Assembly: GCA_049518795.1 (NCBI GenBank)
Contig: JBEKRK010000001.1
Span: forward strand, 583,506-647,505
DNA from: Sedimentisphaerales bacterium
Lineage (GTDB): Bacteria; Planctomycetota; Phycisphaerae; Sedimentisphaerales; UBA12454
Length of the DNA: 64,000 bases
Direction: 5' to 3'
In this document: positions 41,851 through 43,742 of the stretch, piece by piece
How the letters are laid out: each line of letters starts with the position of its first letter
Position numbering within the stretch: position 1 is the first letter of the stretch
Position numbers and translations under genes: made by a program
The notes under the pieces: model-generated
Told to the model about the DNA's origin: nothing
Seen by the model: only the letters and a program-made list of their open reading frames with translations
Database searches by the model: none

Positions 41851-42237
41851 TTATTTCTGCTGCTGTTGCTGCTGAGTTTTATATTGCCCCAATTCTCTTT
41901 CAAGGTCTGCGATTCTTGACAACAGATATGCGTTCTCTTCTGAAAGTTTCGAGGCATCATCCAGCAGGTCTTTGGGCAGTTCGTCCATAAGCCATTTGAT
42001 ATTTTCATTGCACTGCTGGTCTGCCTTTTCCTTTTCATCCTCGCACTGGCGGACAAGACTTTTTTGTTTTTCTATTTCTTCCTGACAGCTCTTCAACTCA
42101 TTTTTAAGGTTCAGGTTTTCATTGCCTACGAGCCTGTCTTTCCTTGAAATCTCAGTAGTTTGTTTCTCCTGCGACTGCTGACAGCCCGCTAAAATAACTA
42201 CTAGTATTACCGATAAAATAAAGCTTAATCTTTTCAT
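41851..42237 (-). CDS. Hypothetical coiled-coil lipoprotein
   Basis: MKRLSFILSVILVVILAGC lipobox, then a heptad-rich polar region. ATG at 42237 (track start 42267). Confidence 0.75.
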   Translation of the reverse strand: MKRLSFILSVILVVILAGCQQSQEKQTTEISRKDRLVGNENLNLKNELKSCQEEIEKQKSLVRQCEDEKEKADQQCNENIKWLMDELPKDLLDDASKLSEENAYLLSRIADLERELGQYKTQQQQQQK

Positions 42238-42332
42238 AACCTGCCCTTTAATAAGAAGTTCTGTCATTTAAGACCTGCAATTATATCGGCTTTTCTTTAC
42301 CGGTCAACAATAATTAAATAAGGTAAAATTGC

Positions 42333-42374
42333 AAAAAAACGGAAGATTCTGTCGTAGCGTTAGAATCTTCCGTT
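42333..42374 (-). terminator. Strong intrinsic terminator (minus strand)
   Basis: 13-bp perfect stem AACGGAAGATTCT (42338-50) / AGAATCTTCCGTT (42362-74); A7 run at 42333-39 reads as a U-tract on the minus strand. Confidence 0.85.
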
Positions 42375-42484
42375 AGCCTTGTGAGCTGAAGTCAAAATTT
42401 TGAGTTACGGCTCACGGTTTTAATTAGTCGTCGCAAGAATTAACCGTGGCGAAACCTACTGCTGCGACGACATTTTACTAAAAA

Positions 42485-42523
42485 CTATTTTTTCTTTTTT
42501 GCTGCTTTTTTCTTCTTAGCCAT
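42485..42523 (-). CDS. Candidate 12-aa Lys-rich micropeptide MAKKKKAAKKKK
   Basis: ATG GCT AAG AAG AAA AAA GCA GCA AAA AAG AAA AAA TAG, preceded at 7 nt by AAAGGAGGTG (42531-40), a near-perfect Shine-Dalgarno. Confidence 0.6.
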   Translation of the reverse strand: MAKKKKAAKKKK

Positions 42524-43118
42524 TATTGTTCACCTCCTTTCAACAAAAAGGATTTACTGAACAATACTTTTTTACACTTCTTTGTAATTCTGTCAACAAA
42601 TTTTTGTCATAAGTTCACGTGCTCAACATATTTATCGTCAAATAAGTGGAAATTTCTTCACAATTTTCTTAATAATTTCTCTTTTATCGCTTCATTGATT
42701 CATTGAATGGCACAAGTAAATTATAAATCGGAAAATATGCTGCGAATGTTTTTATGCACTAATAGCATCATCATAAAACCATCTAAAATGGTTCGATATT
42801 AAGCGAAAATCAACGATTTTCCTGATTTTGAAATATTGTTTGTAATTTTCTCTTGCGCAATAAAAAATGTGAGAAATCGAAAAATTAAAATTACTAATTT
42901 GAATGAAAACTATCTGACAAGAATTTTTTTTTGAAATTTTAAAAAAATAGTGAAAATCCGTATTTTAAAGGATTTTTTGAGATAAATTTTTGAATTTATA
43001 CCAAAATATGCAACAGTTTATTTGTGAAATTTTTTGCTTAAAAGTTGTTTTTGCCTTTGCTGATATAGTTTTTTATAATATTAAGTCTGGTTTTTTAACT
43101 TATTAAAGGTTACTGCGA

Positions 43119-43742
43119 ATGTCGGACAAGATAATTTTATTTGGCGGAACTTATGACCCCGTTCATATTGGTCATATAGATGTTGCGGCTTCGGCGGCCC
43201 GGATAATCGGCGCATCGACAGTTTTCCTGATACCCGCCAGGCGTTCACCGCACAAGCAAAACAGGCCTTTGGCTGCAGATGATGACCGGATTGCAATGTT
43301 GAAACTTGCCATTGCGGGTAAAAGCCTTTTCCAGATAAGTCCTGTGGAGCTGAACAGGGCTGAACCCAGCTACACAATTGACACCATCATATATTTCAGG
43401 CAGAAATTTGGACCGGCCTGTCAGCTTTATTGGCTCATCGGCGCCGATATGCTAAAGGATTTGCCGAAGTGGTTCAAGATTGATGAACTGATGAATGAAT
43501 GCACAATTTGTGTTATGAACCGCGGCGGCTTTGACAGGCCTGATTTCAAAGATTTAGCGGGCAAATTGGGCGAGAAAAACATTGAAAAGTTGCGCCAAAA
43601 TTCGATTGAAACTCCTCTAATTGATATTAGCAGCACTGAAATACGTCAGAAATTATCACAAAGCGAAGATGTTAGCAAATTTCTGCATCCAGCCGTTTTG
43701 AATTATATCAAAACCTACAGACTATACACCGCTGCTGATTAA
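43119..43742 (+). CDS. nadD: Nicotinate-nucleotide adenylyltransferase
   Basis: FGGTYDPVHIGH, SYTIDT, LIGAD and ISSTEIR. Confidence 0.95.
   Translation: MSDKIILFGGTYDPVHIGHIDVAASAARIIGASTVFLIPARRSPHKQNRPLAADDDRIAMLKLAIAGKSLFQISPVELNRAEPSYTIDTIIYFRQKFGPACQLYWLIGADMLKDLPKWFKIDELMNECTICVMNRGGFDRPDFKDLAGKLGEKNIEKLRQNSIETPLIDISSTEIRQKLSQSEDVSKFLHPAVLNYIKTYRLYTAAD

What the first reader, a model, noticed from the sequence alone, without database searches (positions are those of the whole stretch)
42333..42600. Stand-alone mini-transcript: 12-aa MAKKKKAAKKKK peptide, multi-hairpin RNA with pseudoknot potential, strong terminator
Seen (minus strand): TTGACA at 42596-91 (only a weak -10), SD AAAGGAGGTG and a 39-nt ORF with 8 Lys codons. 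Then come a 9-bp stem (42463-71/42427-35) whose loop holds CACGGTT, complementary to AACCGTG 7 nt past the stem; a 6-bp stem (42410-15/42381-86) that competes for the same GTG; and a 13-bp terminator. The terminator loop could pair 8/9 with the 5' arm of the first stem. Inference: either a histone-H1-like or ribosome-associated micropeptide with a stabilising 3' RNA, a Lys-tRNA-sensing leader/attenuator, or a dual-function sRNA. I recognise no known family.
Basis: partly seen in the sequence, partly recalled or inferred. Interest (0 to 1): 0.7.

Follow-up and report, generated by a model that had tools for sequence, protein, structure and literature searches.

The report
Conserved polylysine micropeptide gene, structured mRNA
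A tiny unannotated gene in a sediment planctomycete encodes a 12-residue, almost pure lysine peptide on a highly folded mini-mRNA; the same kind of gene sits once per genome across its order and recurs in many other phyla, most likely supplying a free histone-tail-like polycation for DNA or RNA.

Summary
It is also strongly conserved.

- **Coding:** the 39-nt ORF (MAKKKKAAKKKK) is a real gene. In 68 distinct relatives the product is MAKKK[(A/V/T)AKKK]n, 12-122 aa, with no Glu, Asp or Gln in about 2,700 codons and free third positions.
- **Ribosome-binding site:** GAAAGGAGGTGA pairs perfectly over 12 nt with the genome's own 16S 3' end. Its only other copy in the genome is the 16S gene.
- **RNA structure:** the 3' UTR forms four helices. 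P1 holds the stop codon; P1 and P2 covary. The P4 terminator has a conserved CGCCACGG apex, occurs once per genome across Sedimentisphaerales, and always follows the Lys-rich ORF.
- **Distribution:** similar stand-alone micro-genes occur in Rokubacteria (43 of 61 genomes), Bdellovibrionota, CPR bacteria and DPANN archaea.
- **Context:** in other planctomycete lineages the gene lies beside smc, scpA or parA. The same AKKK tail is fused to SWIB and histone-fold proteins.

My best reading is a free H1-tail-like polycation that binds nucleic acid, made from a stabilised and probably regulated mRNA. The attenuator idea is rejected. A regulatory role for the 3' UTR stays open. No Rfam, Pfam or NCBIfam family matches.

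The parts
42607..42614 (-). Conserved upstream box ACTTATGA, about 10 nt 5' of the -35; a possible UP element or activator site
   Evidence: Near-invariant in all family-f1 loci in the alignments. Function is inferred only.
42569..42596 (-). Promoter: -35 TTGACA (42596-42591), 16-nt spacer, weak -10 TAAAAA (42574-42569)
   Evidence: Sequence read. ATTGACA and GTAAAA are conserved across the family.
42524..42566 (-). 5' UTR two-tier hairpin that occludes the ribosome-binding site: outer helix UAUUGUUCA/UGAACAAUA, inner helix UCCUUUU/GAAAGGA
   Evidence: Folds at -16.2 kcal/mol. The outer helix covaries within the family: UAUUAUUCA/UGAAUAAUA, and UUGUCAUUC/GAAUGGCAA, which includes the AUG.
42530..42541 (-). 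Shine-Dalgarno GAAAGGAGGTGA, a 12-nt perfect complement of the genome's own 16S rRNA 3' end
   Evidence: The 12-mer has only two occurrences in the 2.9-Mb genome: this site and the 16S gene itself. The duplex with the 16S tail is -21.5 kcal/mol against -11.6 for an ordinary AAGGAGG. It is conserved order-wide and in other phyla.
42485..42523 (-). Micro-ORF MAKKKKAAKKKK plus TAG stop (12 codons, 8 Lys)
   Evidence: Orthologues are MAKKK[(A/V/T)AKKK]n of 12-122 aa. Composition is K 62.5%, A 21%, T 6%, V 5%, with no Glu, Asp or Gln in about 2,700 codons. Codon position 1 is 99% A/G, position 3 uses all four bases, and codon 2 is GCA, GCT, GCG or GCC.
42417..42485 (-). P1 long-range helix (42485-42477 with 42424-42417). 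It contains the G of the stop codon and encloses P2
   Evidence: RNAalifold finds it. Four of 7 pairs show compensatory changes: UUCUG/CAGAA, UUCC/GGAA, UUUU/AAAA. It is predicted sequence by sequence. Family f7 has an analogous helix, UAGCGUAAC...GUUACGC.
42427..42471 (-). P2 hairpin (9 bp) with the loop motif CGCCACGG at 42451-42444
   Evidence: Six of 8 pairs show compensatory changes. The loop motif is the same as at the terminator apex in relatives.
42381..42415 (-). P3 hairpin GUGAGC/GCUCAC enclosing the palindrome UCAAAAUUUUGA (42403-42392)
   Evidence: 99-100% of cells are pairable, but variation is only invariant pairs or G-U changes. It is therefore consistent with pairing but not proven by covariation. 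It is about 90% identical across genera.
42333..42374 (-). P4 intrinsic terminator: 13-bp stem, 11-nt loop AACGCUACGAC (consensus AACGCCACGGC), U7 tail
   Evidence: Folds at -18 kcal/mol. In the order-wide alignment 7 of 11 stem pairs are compensatory, the GGAAG/CUUCC core is invariant, and the apex is CG[CCA]CG. Covariance model R1 gives one strong hit per genome, always just after the Lys-rich ORF.

Best explanation
This is an autonomous, monocistronic micro-gene of about 234 nt, running from roughly 42566 to 42333 on the minus strand.

**How it is expressed.** Its own promoter drives a short mRNA. The 5' end folds into a hairpin that covers an unusually long 12-nt Shine-Dalgarno sequence. 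The duplex between that sequence and the 16S tail (-21.5 kcal/mol) is stronger than the hairpin (-16.2), so 30S subunits can open it and start at a very high rate. That would suit an ORF so short that probably only one ribosome fits on it at a time.

**What it makes.** The product is a 12-residue oligolysine, MAKKKKAAKKKK, with a net charge of about +8. I infer that it works like a free histone-H1 C-terminal tail: a non-sequence-specific polycation that neutralises and compacts nucleic acid, most probably the chromosome.

**What the 3' UTR does.** It folds directly from the stop codon into four helices and ends in an intrinsic terminator. This leaves little single-stranded RNA for nucleases, so it probably stabilises the mRNA. 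The conserved CGCCACGG loop, which is both the P2 loop and the P4 apex, is probably a docking site for an unidentified trans-acting regulator that controls synthesis of a potentially toxic polycation.

**Shown versus inferred.** Shown: the gene is conserved and under protein-level selection; the SD is unique in the genome; P1, P2 and P4 covary; the ORF and the terminator hairpin always occur together. Inferred: expression level, nucleic-acid binding, chromosome role, and loop function.
For: **Coding**
- The SD, ATG GCN and a Lys-rich frame are conserved in every family member.
- A strict SD-plus-ORF pattern hits exactly once per genome in 98 of 251 genomes of the order, with 0 control hits.
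- 68 distinct ORFs contain only K, A, T, V and R. There is no Glu, although GAR is one transition from AAR. Third positions are free, and one-codon indels occur.
- The same peptide is written with AAG and GCG/GCC codons in the Rokubacteria copies but with an AAA/AAG mix and mostly GCA/GCT here.

**Expression signals**
- The 12-nt SD is unique in the genome.
- The gene is single-copy and is the top-ranked K/R-rich ORF with an SD in the genome.

**RNA**
- Fold z-score is -5.4.
- 93.9% of cells pair, against 33-46% for slid controls, and 13 pairs show double changes.
- P4 covaries order-wide and occurs once per genome.
- Four genomes found through the P4 model alone all have a Lys-rich ORF directly upstream.
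- A Phycisphaerae relative (L103) whose terminator stem is a different, G+C-rich sequence keeps the same loop.

**Nucleic-acid and chromosome link**
- AKKK tails of the same kind are N-terminal extensions of SWIB-domain and archaeal histone-fold proteins.
- In other planctomycete lineages the micro-gene lies directly beside smc (L200, L053, and L114 with a 38-nt gap), scpA (L055, L056) or parA (L060, L103, L147, L193).
- Repeat-number variation matches that of Hc2 and BpH1 (PMC2848022).
- Synthesis of the chlamydial H1-like protein HctA is held in check by the sRNA IhtA (PMC3469542, PMC4355289). This is a precedent for RNA-level control of such proteins.
Against: - There is no expression data of any kind.
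- There is no significant homology to any H1-like family. The best Pfam HC2 result is E = 0.09 and 13 bits against a cutoff of 40, and that is for a 94-aa relative.
- Twelve residues is very short for stable DNA binding at physiological salt, so high copy number would be needed.
- In this window's own lineage the neighbours are nadD, a lipoprotein gene and pyrG, not chromosome genes.
- The smc/scpA/parA association was noticed after the fact.
- The conserved loop has no identified partner. No complement occurs in the tRNAs or the rRNA operon or in cis in most families.
- Sequestration of the SD is clear only within family f1. Order-wide, 41 of 66 sequences are more occluded than shuffles.
- A polycation could equally target ribosomes, polyphosphate or membranes.
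Confidence: 0.55

Rival explanations
1. Dual-function or RNA-centred element. The conserved 3' UTR (P3-P4, possibly released as a 3'-derived sRNA of about 90 nt) is the main effector. It would use the CGCCACGG loops or the invariant P3 sequence to pair with targets or to titrate an RNA-binding protein, and translation of the micro-ORF would mainly tune its folding through P1.
For: - P3-P4 is the most conserved stretch, about 90% identity across genera, and is more conserved than the ORF at nucleotide level.
- P3 is sequence-invariant rather than covarying.
- The loop motif is kept even when the stem sequence changes (L103), and it is duplicated in families f1 and f2.
- The stop codon lies inside P1, so a terminating ribosome must remodel the 3' domain, and an alternative loop-CYGUG pairing is possible.
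Against: - No target was found. There is no antisense match in the genome beyond chance and no complement in the tRNAs or rRNA.
- The ORF itself is under strong protein-level selection, and it is conserved in phyla where the 3' UTR is entirely different.
- P3 exists only in family f1.
- No Rfam family matches.
Confidence: 0.17
2. Ribosome-associated micropeptide. The oligolysine would bind rRNA as an accessory ribosomal peptide, in the manner of eL41, bTHX, bS22 or bL37.
For: - It is extremely basic and tiny, like those proteins (my own knowledge of those families).
- The maximal SD suggests ribosomal-protein-like abundance.
- In Rokubacteria the gene lies tail-to-tail with rpmB, which encodes L28.
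Against: - Length varies from 12 to 122 aa within one order, and the sequence is a low-complexity repeat. That does not fit a fixed rRNA pocket.
- It is not in a ribosomal-protein operon in this window.
- There is no NCBIfam or Pfam ribosomal match.
Confidence: 0.1
3. Polycation for a non-nucleic-acid polyanion or surface. The peptide would organise polyphosphate granules (as proposed for the H1-like AlgP), bind anionic membrane, or act as an exported cationic antimicrobial.
For: - The H1-like protein AlgP spaces polyphosphate granules in Pseudomonas (PMC9239181).
- Oligolysines bind any polyanion (general physical chemistry).
- A lipoprotein gene lies downstream in this lineage.
Against: - There is no signal peptide, no transporter and no immunity gene nearby.
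- The neighbours in other lineages are chromosome genes rather than ppk or export genes.
Confidence: 0.08
4. Lysine-sensing leader peptide or attenuator. Ribosome stalling on Lys codons would change 3' folding and control read-through of the terminator into the downstream gene.
For: - Eight of the 12 codons are Lys.
- The stop codon is embedded in helix P1.
- A terminator follows.
Against: - Orthologous ORFs reach 122 aa.
- No conserved antiterminator competes with P4.
- The downstream gene has its own conserved consensus promoter.
- In relatives the downstream gene is convergent or different: a histidine-kinase-like gene, a serA-like gene, parA or smc.
- No lysine-metabolism gene is nearby.
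Confidence: 0.03

Closest known systems
Bacterial histone-H1-like lysine-rich proteins: Chlamydia Hc2/HctB and Hc1/HctA, Bordetella BpH1, Pseudomonas AlgP
   Same: - Lys/Ala-rich short tandem repeats (pentamers).
- Size variation through repeat number (PMC2848022).
- No acidic residues.
- Expected non-specific polyanion binding.
- HctA synthesis is controlled at the RNA level by the sRNA IhtA (PMC3469542). Here the own mRNA carries conserved structured elements.
   Different: - Those proteins are 120-240 aa. This one is 12 aa, and 12-122 aa across the order.
- There is no significant profile match (Pfam HC2 E = 0.09).
- It has a stand-alone mini-transcript, a 12-nt perfect SD and a lineage-specific terminator hairpin with a conserved loop.
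- It is unannotated and absent from protein databases.
Coxiella burnetii ScvA and Hq1, small basic DNA-binding proteins enriched in the small-cell variant (PMC4766238)
   Same: A very small, highly basic peptide thought to act on the nucleoid.
   Different: - From my own knowledge, ScvA is about 30 aa and Arg/Gln-rich, and it is developmentally restricted to one genus.
- There is no sequence relation.
- No developmental cycle is known here.
Tiny basic ribosomal proteins (eL41, bTHX, bS22, bL37)
   Same: Similar size range, extreme basicity, and probable high expression.
   Different: Those have fixed lengths and unique sequences that fit defined rRNA pockets. Here there is a variable low-complexity repeat and no family match.
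Dual-function RNAs and 3'UTR-derived sRNAs (SgrS/SgrT, RNAIII/hld, OppZ/CarZ)
   Same: A short transcript that combines a micro-ORF with a conserved, structured region bearing a terminator.
   Different: No seed-target pairing or processed RNA species has been shown. Here the ORF is the most widely conserved part.
Lys-rich AKKK tails fused to SWIB-domain proteins (Nitrospirota, Bdellovibrionota) and to histone-fold proteins (Promethearchaeota), seen here
   Same: The same MAKKK(A/V/T)AKKK... start and repeat grammar, found on proteins with DNA or chromatin roles.
   Different: In those proteins the tail is an appendage of a folded domain. Here the tail is the whole protein.

Membership tests
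Histone H1-like lysine-rich bacterial proteins (Hc2/HctB, Pfam PF07382; BpH1; AlgP) | Lys/Ala-rich tandem short repeats, no acidic residues, repeat-number polymorphism | tested here: met
   K 62.5%, A 21%, and 0 Asp/Glu in 68 ORFs. (A/V/T)AKKK units vary from 2 to about 25 copies.
Histone H1-like lysine-rich bacterial proteins (Hc2/HctB, Pfam PF07382; BpH1; AlgP) | Significant match to the family profile | tested here: not met
   The best result is HC2 E = 0.09, 13.3 bits against a cutoff of 40, for a 94-aa relative. Shorter relatives give nothing, and the 12-mer is below the tool's minimum length.
Histone H1-like lysine-rich bacterial proteins (Hc2/HctB, Pfam PF07382; BpH1; AlgP) | Binds and condenses DNA | not testable with these tools
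   Only indirect evidence: smc/scpA/parA neighbours in other lineages and the same tail on SWIB and histone-fold proteins.
Small basic ribosomal proteins (eL41, bTHX, bS22, bL37) | Fixed length and a conserved, non-repetitive sequence | tested here: not met
   Length is 12-122 aa within one order, and the sequence is a low-complexity repeat.
Small basic ribosomal proteins (eL41, bTHX, bS22, bL37) | Match to a ribosomal-protein family model | tested here: not met
   No NCBIfam or Pfam ribosomal hit at E up to 10.
Small basic ribosomal proteins (eL41, bTHX, bS22, bL37) | Physical presence in the ribosome | not testable with these tools
   No proteomic or structural data are available.
Leader-peptide transcription attenuator (trpL/hisL type) | Short leader ORF enriched in codons of the sensed amino acid | tested here: inconclusive
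   Eight of 12 codons are Lys in this window, but orthologues are up to 122 aa, which is not leader-like.
Leader-peptide transcription attenuator (trpL/hisL type) | Conserved mutually exclusive antiterminator and terminator helices | tested here: not met
   The P4 arms have no conserved alternative partner. The only alternative pairing involves P1 and P3, not P4.
Leader-peptide transcription attenuator (trpL/hisL type) | Controls a co-oriented downstream operon that lacks its own promoter | tested here: not met
   The downstream gene has a conserved TTGACC-16-TATAAT promoter. In relatives the next gene is convergent or unrelated.
Any Rfam 15 RNA family | Covariance-model match at or near the gathering score | tested here: not met
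   There are 0 hits at gathering threshold over the window. In 42200-43150 only chance hits of 16 bits or less appear.
Rho-independent (intrinsic) terminator | Stable G+C-containing hairpin directly followed by a U tract | tested here: met
   13-bp stem, -18 kcal/mol, U7 tail. The stem covaries order-wide. The consensus scan missed it only because of its 11-nt loop.
3'UTR-derived or dual-function sRNA | Conserved exposed seed with complementary targets, and a stable processed RNA species | tested here: inconclusive
   The CGCCACGG loop is conserved, but no complement was found in the tRNAs, the rRNA or elsewhere above chance. RNA species could not be examined.

The most novel reading that the evidence does not exclude
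Genetically encoded oligolysines of 10-120 residues form a cross-phylum, so far unannotated class of 'protein polyamines'. Each would be made from a dedicated mini-mRNA with a maximal Shine-Dalgarno sequence and would serve as a tunable counter-ion for chromosome compaction alongside SMC-ScpAB and ParAB. In Sedimentisphaerales, output would be set by a dedicated feedback device: the once-per-genome terminator hairpin with the CGCCACGG apex, together with a stop codon buried in a helix.
Probability: 0.25. Interest if true: 0.85.

Novelty: new variant of a known kind. Interest (0 to 1): 0.64.

Why it matters
**Annotation gap.** Gene callers and protein databases miss these genes entirely. Ten of 10 variants are absent from a 15-billion-protein collection, and a 60-aa variant has no hits. 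Yet the gene is single-copy, carries the strongest ribosome-binding site in its genome, and is conserved across an order. Look-alike genes occur in Rokubacteria, Bdellovibrionota, CPR bacteria and DPANN archaea.

**Biology.** If the peptide is a free histone-tail-like polycation, it would be a minimal nucleoid or charge-balancing factor. That would give a simple, testable handle on how bacteria with condensed nucleoids, planctomycetes among them, manage DNA charge.

**RNA.** The once-per-genome hairpin with a conserved loop is a clean candidate for a new RNA-protein or RNA-RNA control module.

Tried and rejected
- **Rfam.** Gathering threshold over the whole window and permissive E-value over the locus gave nothing.
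- **Protein family libraries.** Pfam and NCBIfam on longer orthologues gave only sub-threshold HC2 and SepX noise.
- **Protein collections.** Exact look-up of 10 variants in the 15-billion-protein collection found none. A homologue search with a 60-aa variant found 488 word-sharing candidates, none significant.
- **Extra copies in the genome.** The locus and the terminator are single-copy. Apparent second copies at contig ends in G022 and G007 are assembly breaks at the hairpin.
It is compatible but has only 2 compensatory cells, and it excludes P1 and P3.
It is 7 of 8 in this window. However, the P2 arm varies while the loop stays constant, and the loop persists in families that lack P2. I reject it as the reason for the loop's conservation.
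- **Partner for the CGCCACGG loop.** No complement was found in the 49 tRNAs (including both tRNA-Lys) or in the rRNA operon. The genome-wide count of the 8-mer complement (45) shows no obvious excess. Most families have no cis partner. Pairing with the SD or the start codon gives at most 4-5 bp by inspection.
- **T-box-like tRNA sensing.** There is no specifier/UGGN architecture, so I rejected it.
- **Attenuator model.** Rejected on synteny and ORF length.
- **Literature.** Searches for stand-alone oligolysine micro-genes found nothing relevant.
- **Structure prediction.** Not attempted, because a 12-mer of Lys and Ala carries no fold information.
Full report
**Observation**

- TTGACA at 42596-42591, followed after 16 nt by a poor -10, TAAAAA.
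- GAAAGGAGGTGA at 42541-42530.
- ATG GCT AAG AAG AAA AAA GCA GCA AAA AAG AAA AAA TAG at 42523-42485.
- A 9-bp hairpin (42471-42463 with 42435-42427) with CACGGTT in its loop, and AACCGTG 7 nt downstream.
- A 6-bp helix (42415-42410 with 42386-42381).
- A 13-bp hairpin (42374-42362 with 42350-42338) followed by seven T.

The 246-nt stretch folds at -70.3 kcal/mol, against -48.4 +/- 4.0 for dinucleotide shuffles (z = -5.4). The consensus terminator scan missed the last hairpin only because its loop is 11 nt. Rfam has nothing here at gathering or permissive thresholds.

**Organism and copy number**

The window is contig C1:583506-647505 of a 2.9-Mb genome with 43.6% G+C. The order is therefore Sedimentisphaerales, in Phycisphaerae, Planctomycetota. 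The locus is single-copy in its genome.

**The ORF is a real gene**

All 21 family-level loci keep the promoter, the SD, ATG GCN and a Lys-rich frame. The product there is MAKKK[(A/V)AKKK]n of 12-34 aa, and the window's copy is the shortest. Other families of the order have 17-122 aa versions.

A strict pattern, AAGGAGGTGA-N4-9-ATGGCNAARMRNAAR, hits exactly once per genome in 98 of 251 genomes of the order (43 of 110 genera). The reversed control pattern gives no hits.

Across 68 distinct ORFs:
- Residues are K 62.5%, A 21%, T 6%, V 5% and R 1.6%.
- There is not one Glu, Asp or Gln, and only one Asn, in about 2,700 codons. This holds even though GAR is a single transition from AAR.
- Codon position 1 is 99% A or G, while position 3 uses all four bases.
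- Codon 2 occurs as GCA, GCT, GCG and GCC.
- Lengths differ by single codons.

In the Rokubacteria copies listed the same peptide is spelled with AAG and GCG/GCC codons. This pattern is what protein-level selection for a polycation looks like, not an RNA constraint.

None of 10 variants is in a 15-billion-protein collection. A 60-aa variant finds no significant homologue. Pfam and NCBIfam give only a sub-threshold HC2 hit (E = 0.09).

**Translation signals**

GAAAGGAGGTGA is a perfect 12-nt complement of the genome's own 16S 3' end. The 12-mer occurs only twice in the genome: here and in the 16S gene. The predicted duplex is -21.5 kcal/mol, against -11.6 for an ordinary AAGGAGG.

In family f1 the SD is buried in a two-tier 5' hairpin (-16.2 kcal/mol). 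Its outer helix covaries: UAUUGUUCA/UGAACAAUA, UAUUAUUCA/UGAAUAAUA, and in another genus UUGUCAUUC/GAAUGGCAA, which covers the AUG. Order-wide the occlusion is only a weak trend, with 41 of 66 sequences more occluded than shuffles.

Extended SDs of the form (A)AAGGAGGTGA also precede the look-alike genes in Rokubacteria, Bdellovibrionota, CPR bacteria and Brocadiales.

**The 3' UTR**

RNAalifold and explicit pair counts on 21 family sequences give four helices.
- **P1** pairs the stop codon and the following bases with a segment about 60 nt downstream. Four of 7 pairs are compensatory (UUCUG/CAGAA, UUCC/GGAA, UUUU/AAAA).
- **P2** has 6 of 8 compensatory pairs.
- **P3** is always pairable but essentially invariant.
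- **P4** is the terminator.

Overall 93.9% of cells pair, against 33-46% when partners are slid by 1-3 columns.

It also excludes P1 and P3. It may be an alternative conformer when a terminating ribosome opens P1, but this is inference.

**P4 is the most remarkable RNA part**

An alignment of 42 hairpins from families f1, f2, f3, f6 and f7 shows 7 of 11 stem pairs with compensatory changes. The GGAAG/CUUCC core is invariant, and the apex is CG[CCA]CG within (Y)CGCCACGGC(R).

A covariance model gives one strong hit (above 47 bits) per genome and no second site. Four genomes that the ORF pattern had missed were found through the hairpin alone, and each has a Lys-rich ORF of about 49-110 aa directly upstream. 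A Phycisphaerae relative with a different, G+C-rich stem keeps the same loop (L103).

Families f1 and f2 carry a second CGCCACGG upstream in the 3' UTR. Family f7 keeps the stem but varies the loop, and it also buries its stop codon in a long-range helix.

No partner for the loop was found:
- There is no complement in the 49 tRNAs or the rRNA operon, and the complement 8-mer shows no obvious genome-wide excess.
- Most families have no cis complement.
- No other terminator in the genome has such a loop.

The loop's function is therefore unexplained. A trans-acting protein or RNA is the simplest inference.

**Not an attenuator**

- The gene downstream in this lineage encodes a lipoprotein-like coiled-coil protein with no Pfam match. 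It has its own conserved TTGACC-16-TATAAT promoter.
- In other lineages the next gene is convergent or unrelated.
- ORFs reach 122 aa.
- No helix competes with P4.

**Wider distribution and context**

A GTDB-wide pattern scan stopped at its 120-locus limit. It found stand-alone MAKKK...KKKK ORFs of 10-120 aa in:
- Rokubacteria/Methylomirabilota
- Bdellovibrionota
- Woesearchaeota and Nanoarchaeota
- CPR groups
- Elusimicrobia (three tandem copies)
- Verrucomicrobia
- Eisenbacteria
- Brocadiales
- Records labelled Pirellulales. At least one of these (L181) is the same contig as an order-level relative of this genome, so that label may be imprecise.

In one Rokubacteria order 43 of 61 genomes have a match, many with several hits that include tandem pairs about 110 nt apart, and the control gives 0.

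The same tail also begins SWIB-domain proteins and archaeal histone-fold proteins.

Synteny differs by lineage:
- In Sedimentisphaerales f1, f6 and f7 the gene is divergent from nadD.
- In f2 and three other Phycisphaerae it lies 200-560 nt upstream of parA on the same strand.
- In a Brocadiales genome and another planctomycete it lies upstream of smc.
- In L114 it follows smc after 38 nt.
- In L055 and L056 it follows a gene whose product I identified as ScpA from its N-terminal sequence (Pfam was not run on it).
- In Rokubacteria it lies tail-to-tail with rpmB and upstream of recG.
- In two CPR genomes it lies next to secA.

Pfam confirms the SMC, ParA-type, L28 and SecA assignments. Three different genes of the chromosome partition and condensation machinery beside the micro-gene in separate planctomycete lineages is unlikely by chance. 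However, I noticed this after the fact.

**Mechanism proposed**

I propose a dedicated mini-mRNA, protected at both ends by structure, that is translated at a very high initiation rate into a free oligolysine. The peptide would act as an H1-tail-like counter-ion on nucleic acid, most probably the chromosome. The conserved loop would provide post-transcriptional control.

Known relatives in kind are Hc2/HctB, BpH1 and AlgP. These vary in size through lysine-rich pentamers (PMC2848022; PMC9239181). [quoted passage not shown] HctA synthesis is repressed by the sRNA IhtA (PMC3469542, PMC4355289), which is a precedent for RNA-level control of such proteins.

Membership in any of these families is not established. 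The composition and repeat criteria are met, the profile criterion is not, and DNA binding is untested.

**Confidence**

| Claim | Probability |
|---|---|
| It is a genuine protein-coding micro-gene | about 0.9 |
| P1, P2 and P4 are real RNA helices | about 0.85 |
| The peptide acts on nucleic acid or the nucleoid | about 0.5-0.55 |
| The loop is a regulatory docking site | about 0.4 |

I saw the corresponding tandem copies myself (L152 and L154).

Noticed in passing
window 42280-42307 (minus strand): A near-consensus promoter, TTGACC-16-TATAAT, lies right after the terminator and drives the downstream gene. It is conserved across the family together with the TATTAAAGGGCAGGTTATG start region.
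   Followed up: partly
window 41851-42237 (minus strand): The downstream gene encodes a protein of about 128 aa with a lipobox-like N-terminus (LAGC), a coiled-coil-like middle and a poly-Q tail. It has no Pfam match. A similar small coiled-coil protein follows the micro-gene in family f6 (L058).
   Followed up: partly
L116, L128, L150, L163, L169, L171, L172, L182, L184, L192, L206 (Rokubacteria loci): The Rokubacteria oligolysine micro-genes (11-13 aa) are followed by their own conserved hairpin, GGUGGGGGGUGGCGGCCUCCCACC. They are often in tandem pairs about 110 nt apart, tail-to-tail with rpmB and upstream of recG.
   Followed up: partly
L152 307-514; L154: An Elusimicrobia contig carries three tandem MAKKKV(A/V)KKKVAKK(R)KR micro-ORFs, each with its own SD. 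They are followed by a small gene whose product starts MAQKLVKLGLKREK.
   Followed up: partly
L141, L149, L168, L188, L217, L120, L186; L135, L165, L173, L183, L212: The same MAKKK(A/V/T)AKKK tail forms the N-terminus of proteins ending in a ...KRKPNAAFMKPM...LWxYIKKNxLQD region in Nitrospirota and Bdellovibrionota. I read that region as a SWIB/MDM2 domain. The tail also begins proteins of about 78-87 aa in Promethearchaeota that I read as histone-fold. Both domain calls are by eye; no family search was run on them.
   Followed up: no
G022:C72/C52 and G007:C102/C32 contig ends: In two relatives the assemblies break exactly at the P4 hairpin, so two contigs overlap by the inverted repeat. This mimics a second copy of the element.
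   Followed up: yes
window 42392-42403 (minus strand): Inside P3 there is a perfect 12-bp palindrome, TCAAAATTTTGA. In two relatives it shrinks symmetrically to TCAAATTTGA. It could be a weak RNA hairpin or a DNA operator for a dimeric regulator.
   Followed up: no
own genome G000:C1:847557 (+), outside the window: A 26-codon ORF, MAKPRRRRKIGSKKRHQKWKIRHHKQ, with an upstream GGAG is another very basic micro-ORF candidate. I did not examine it.
   Followed up: no
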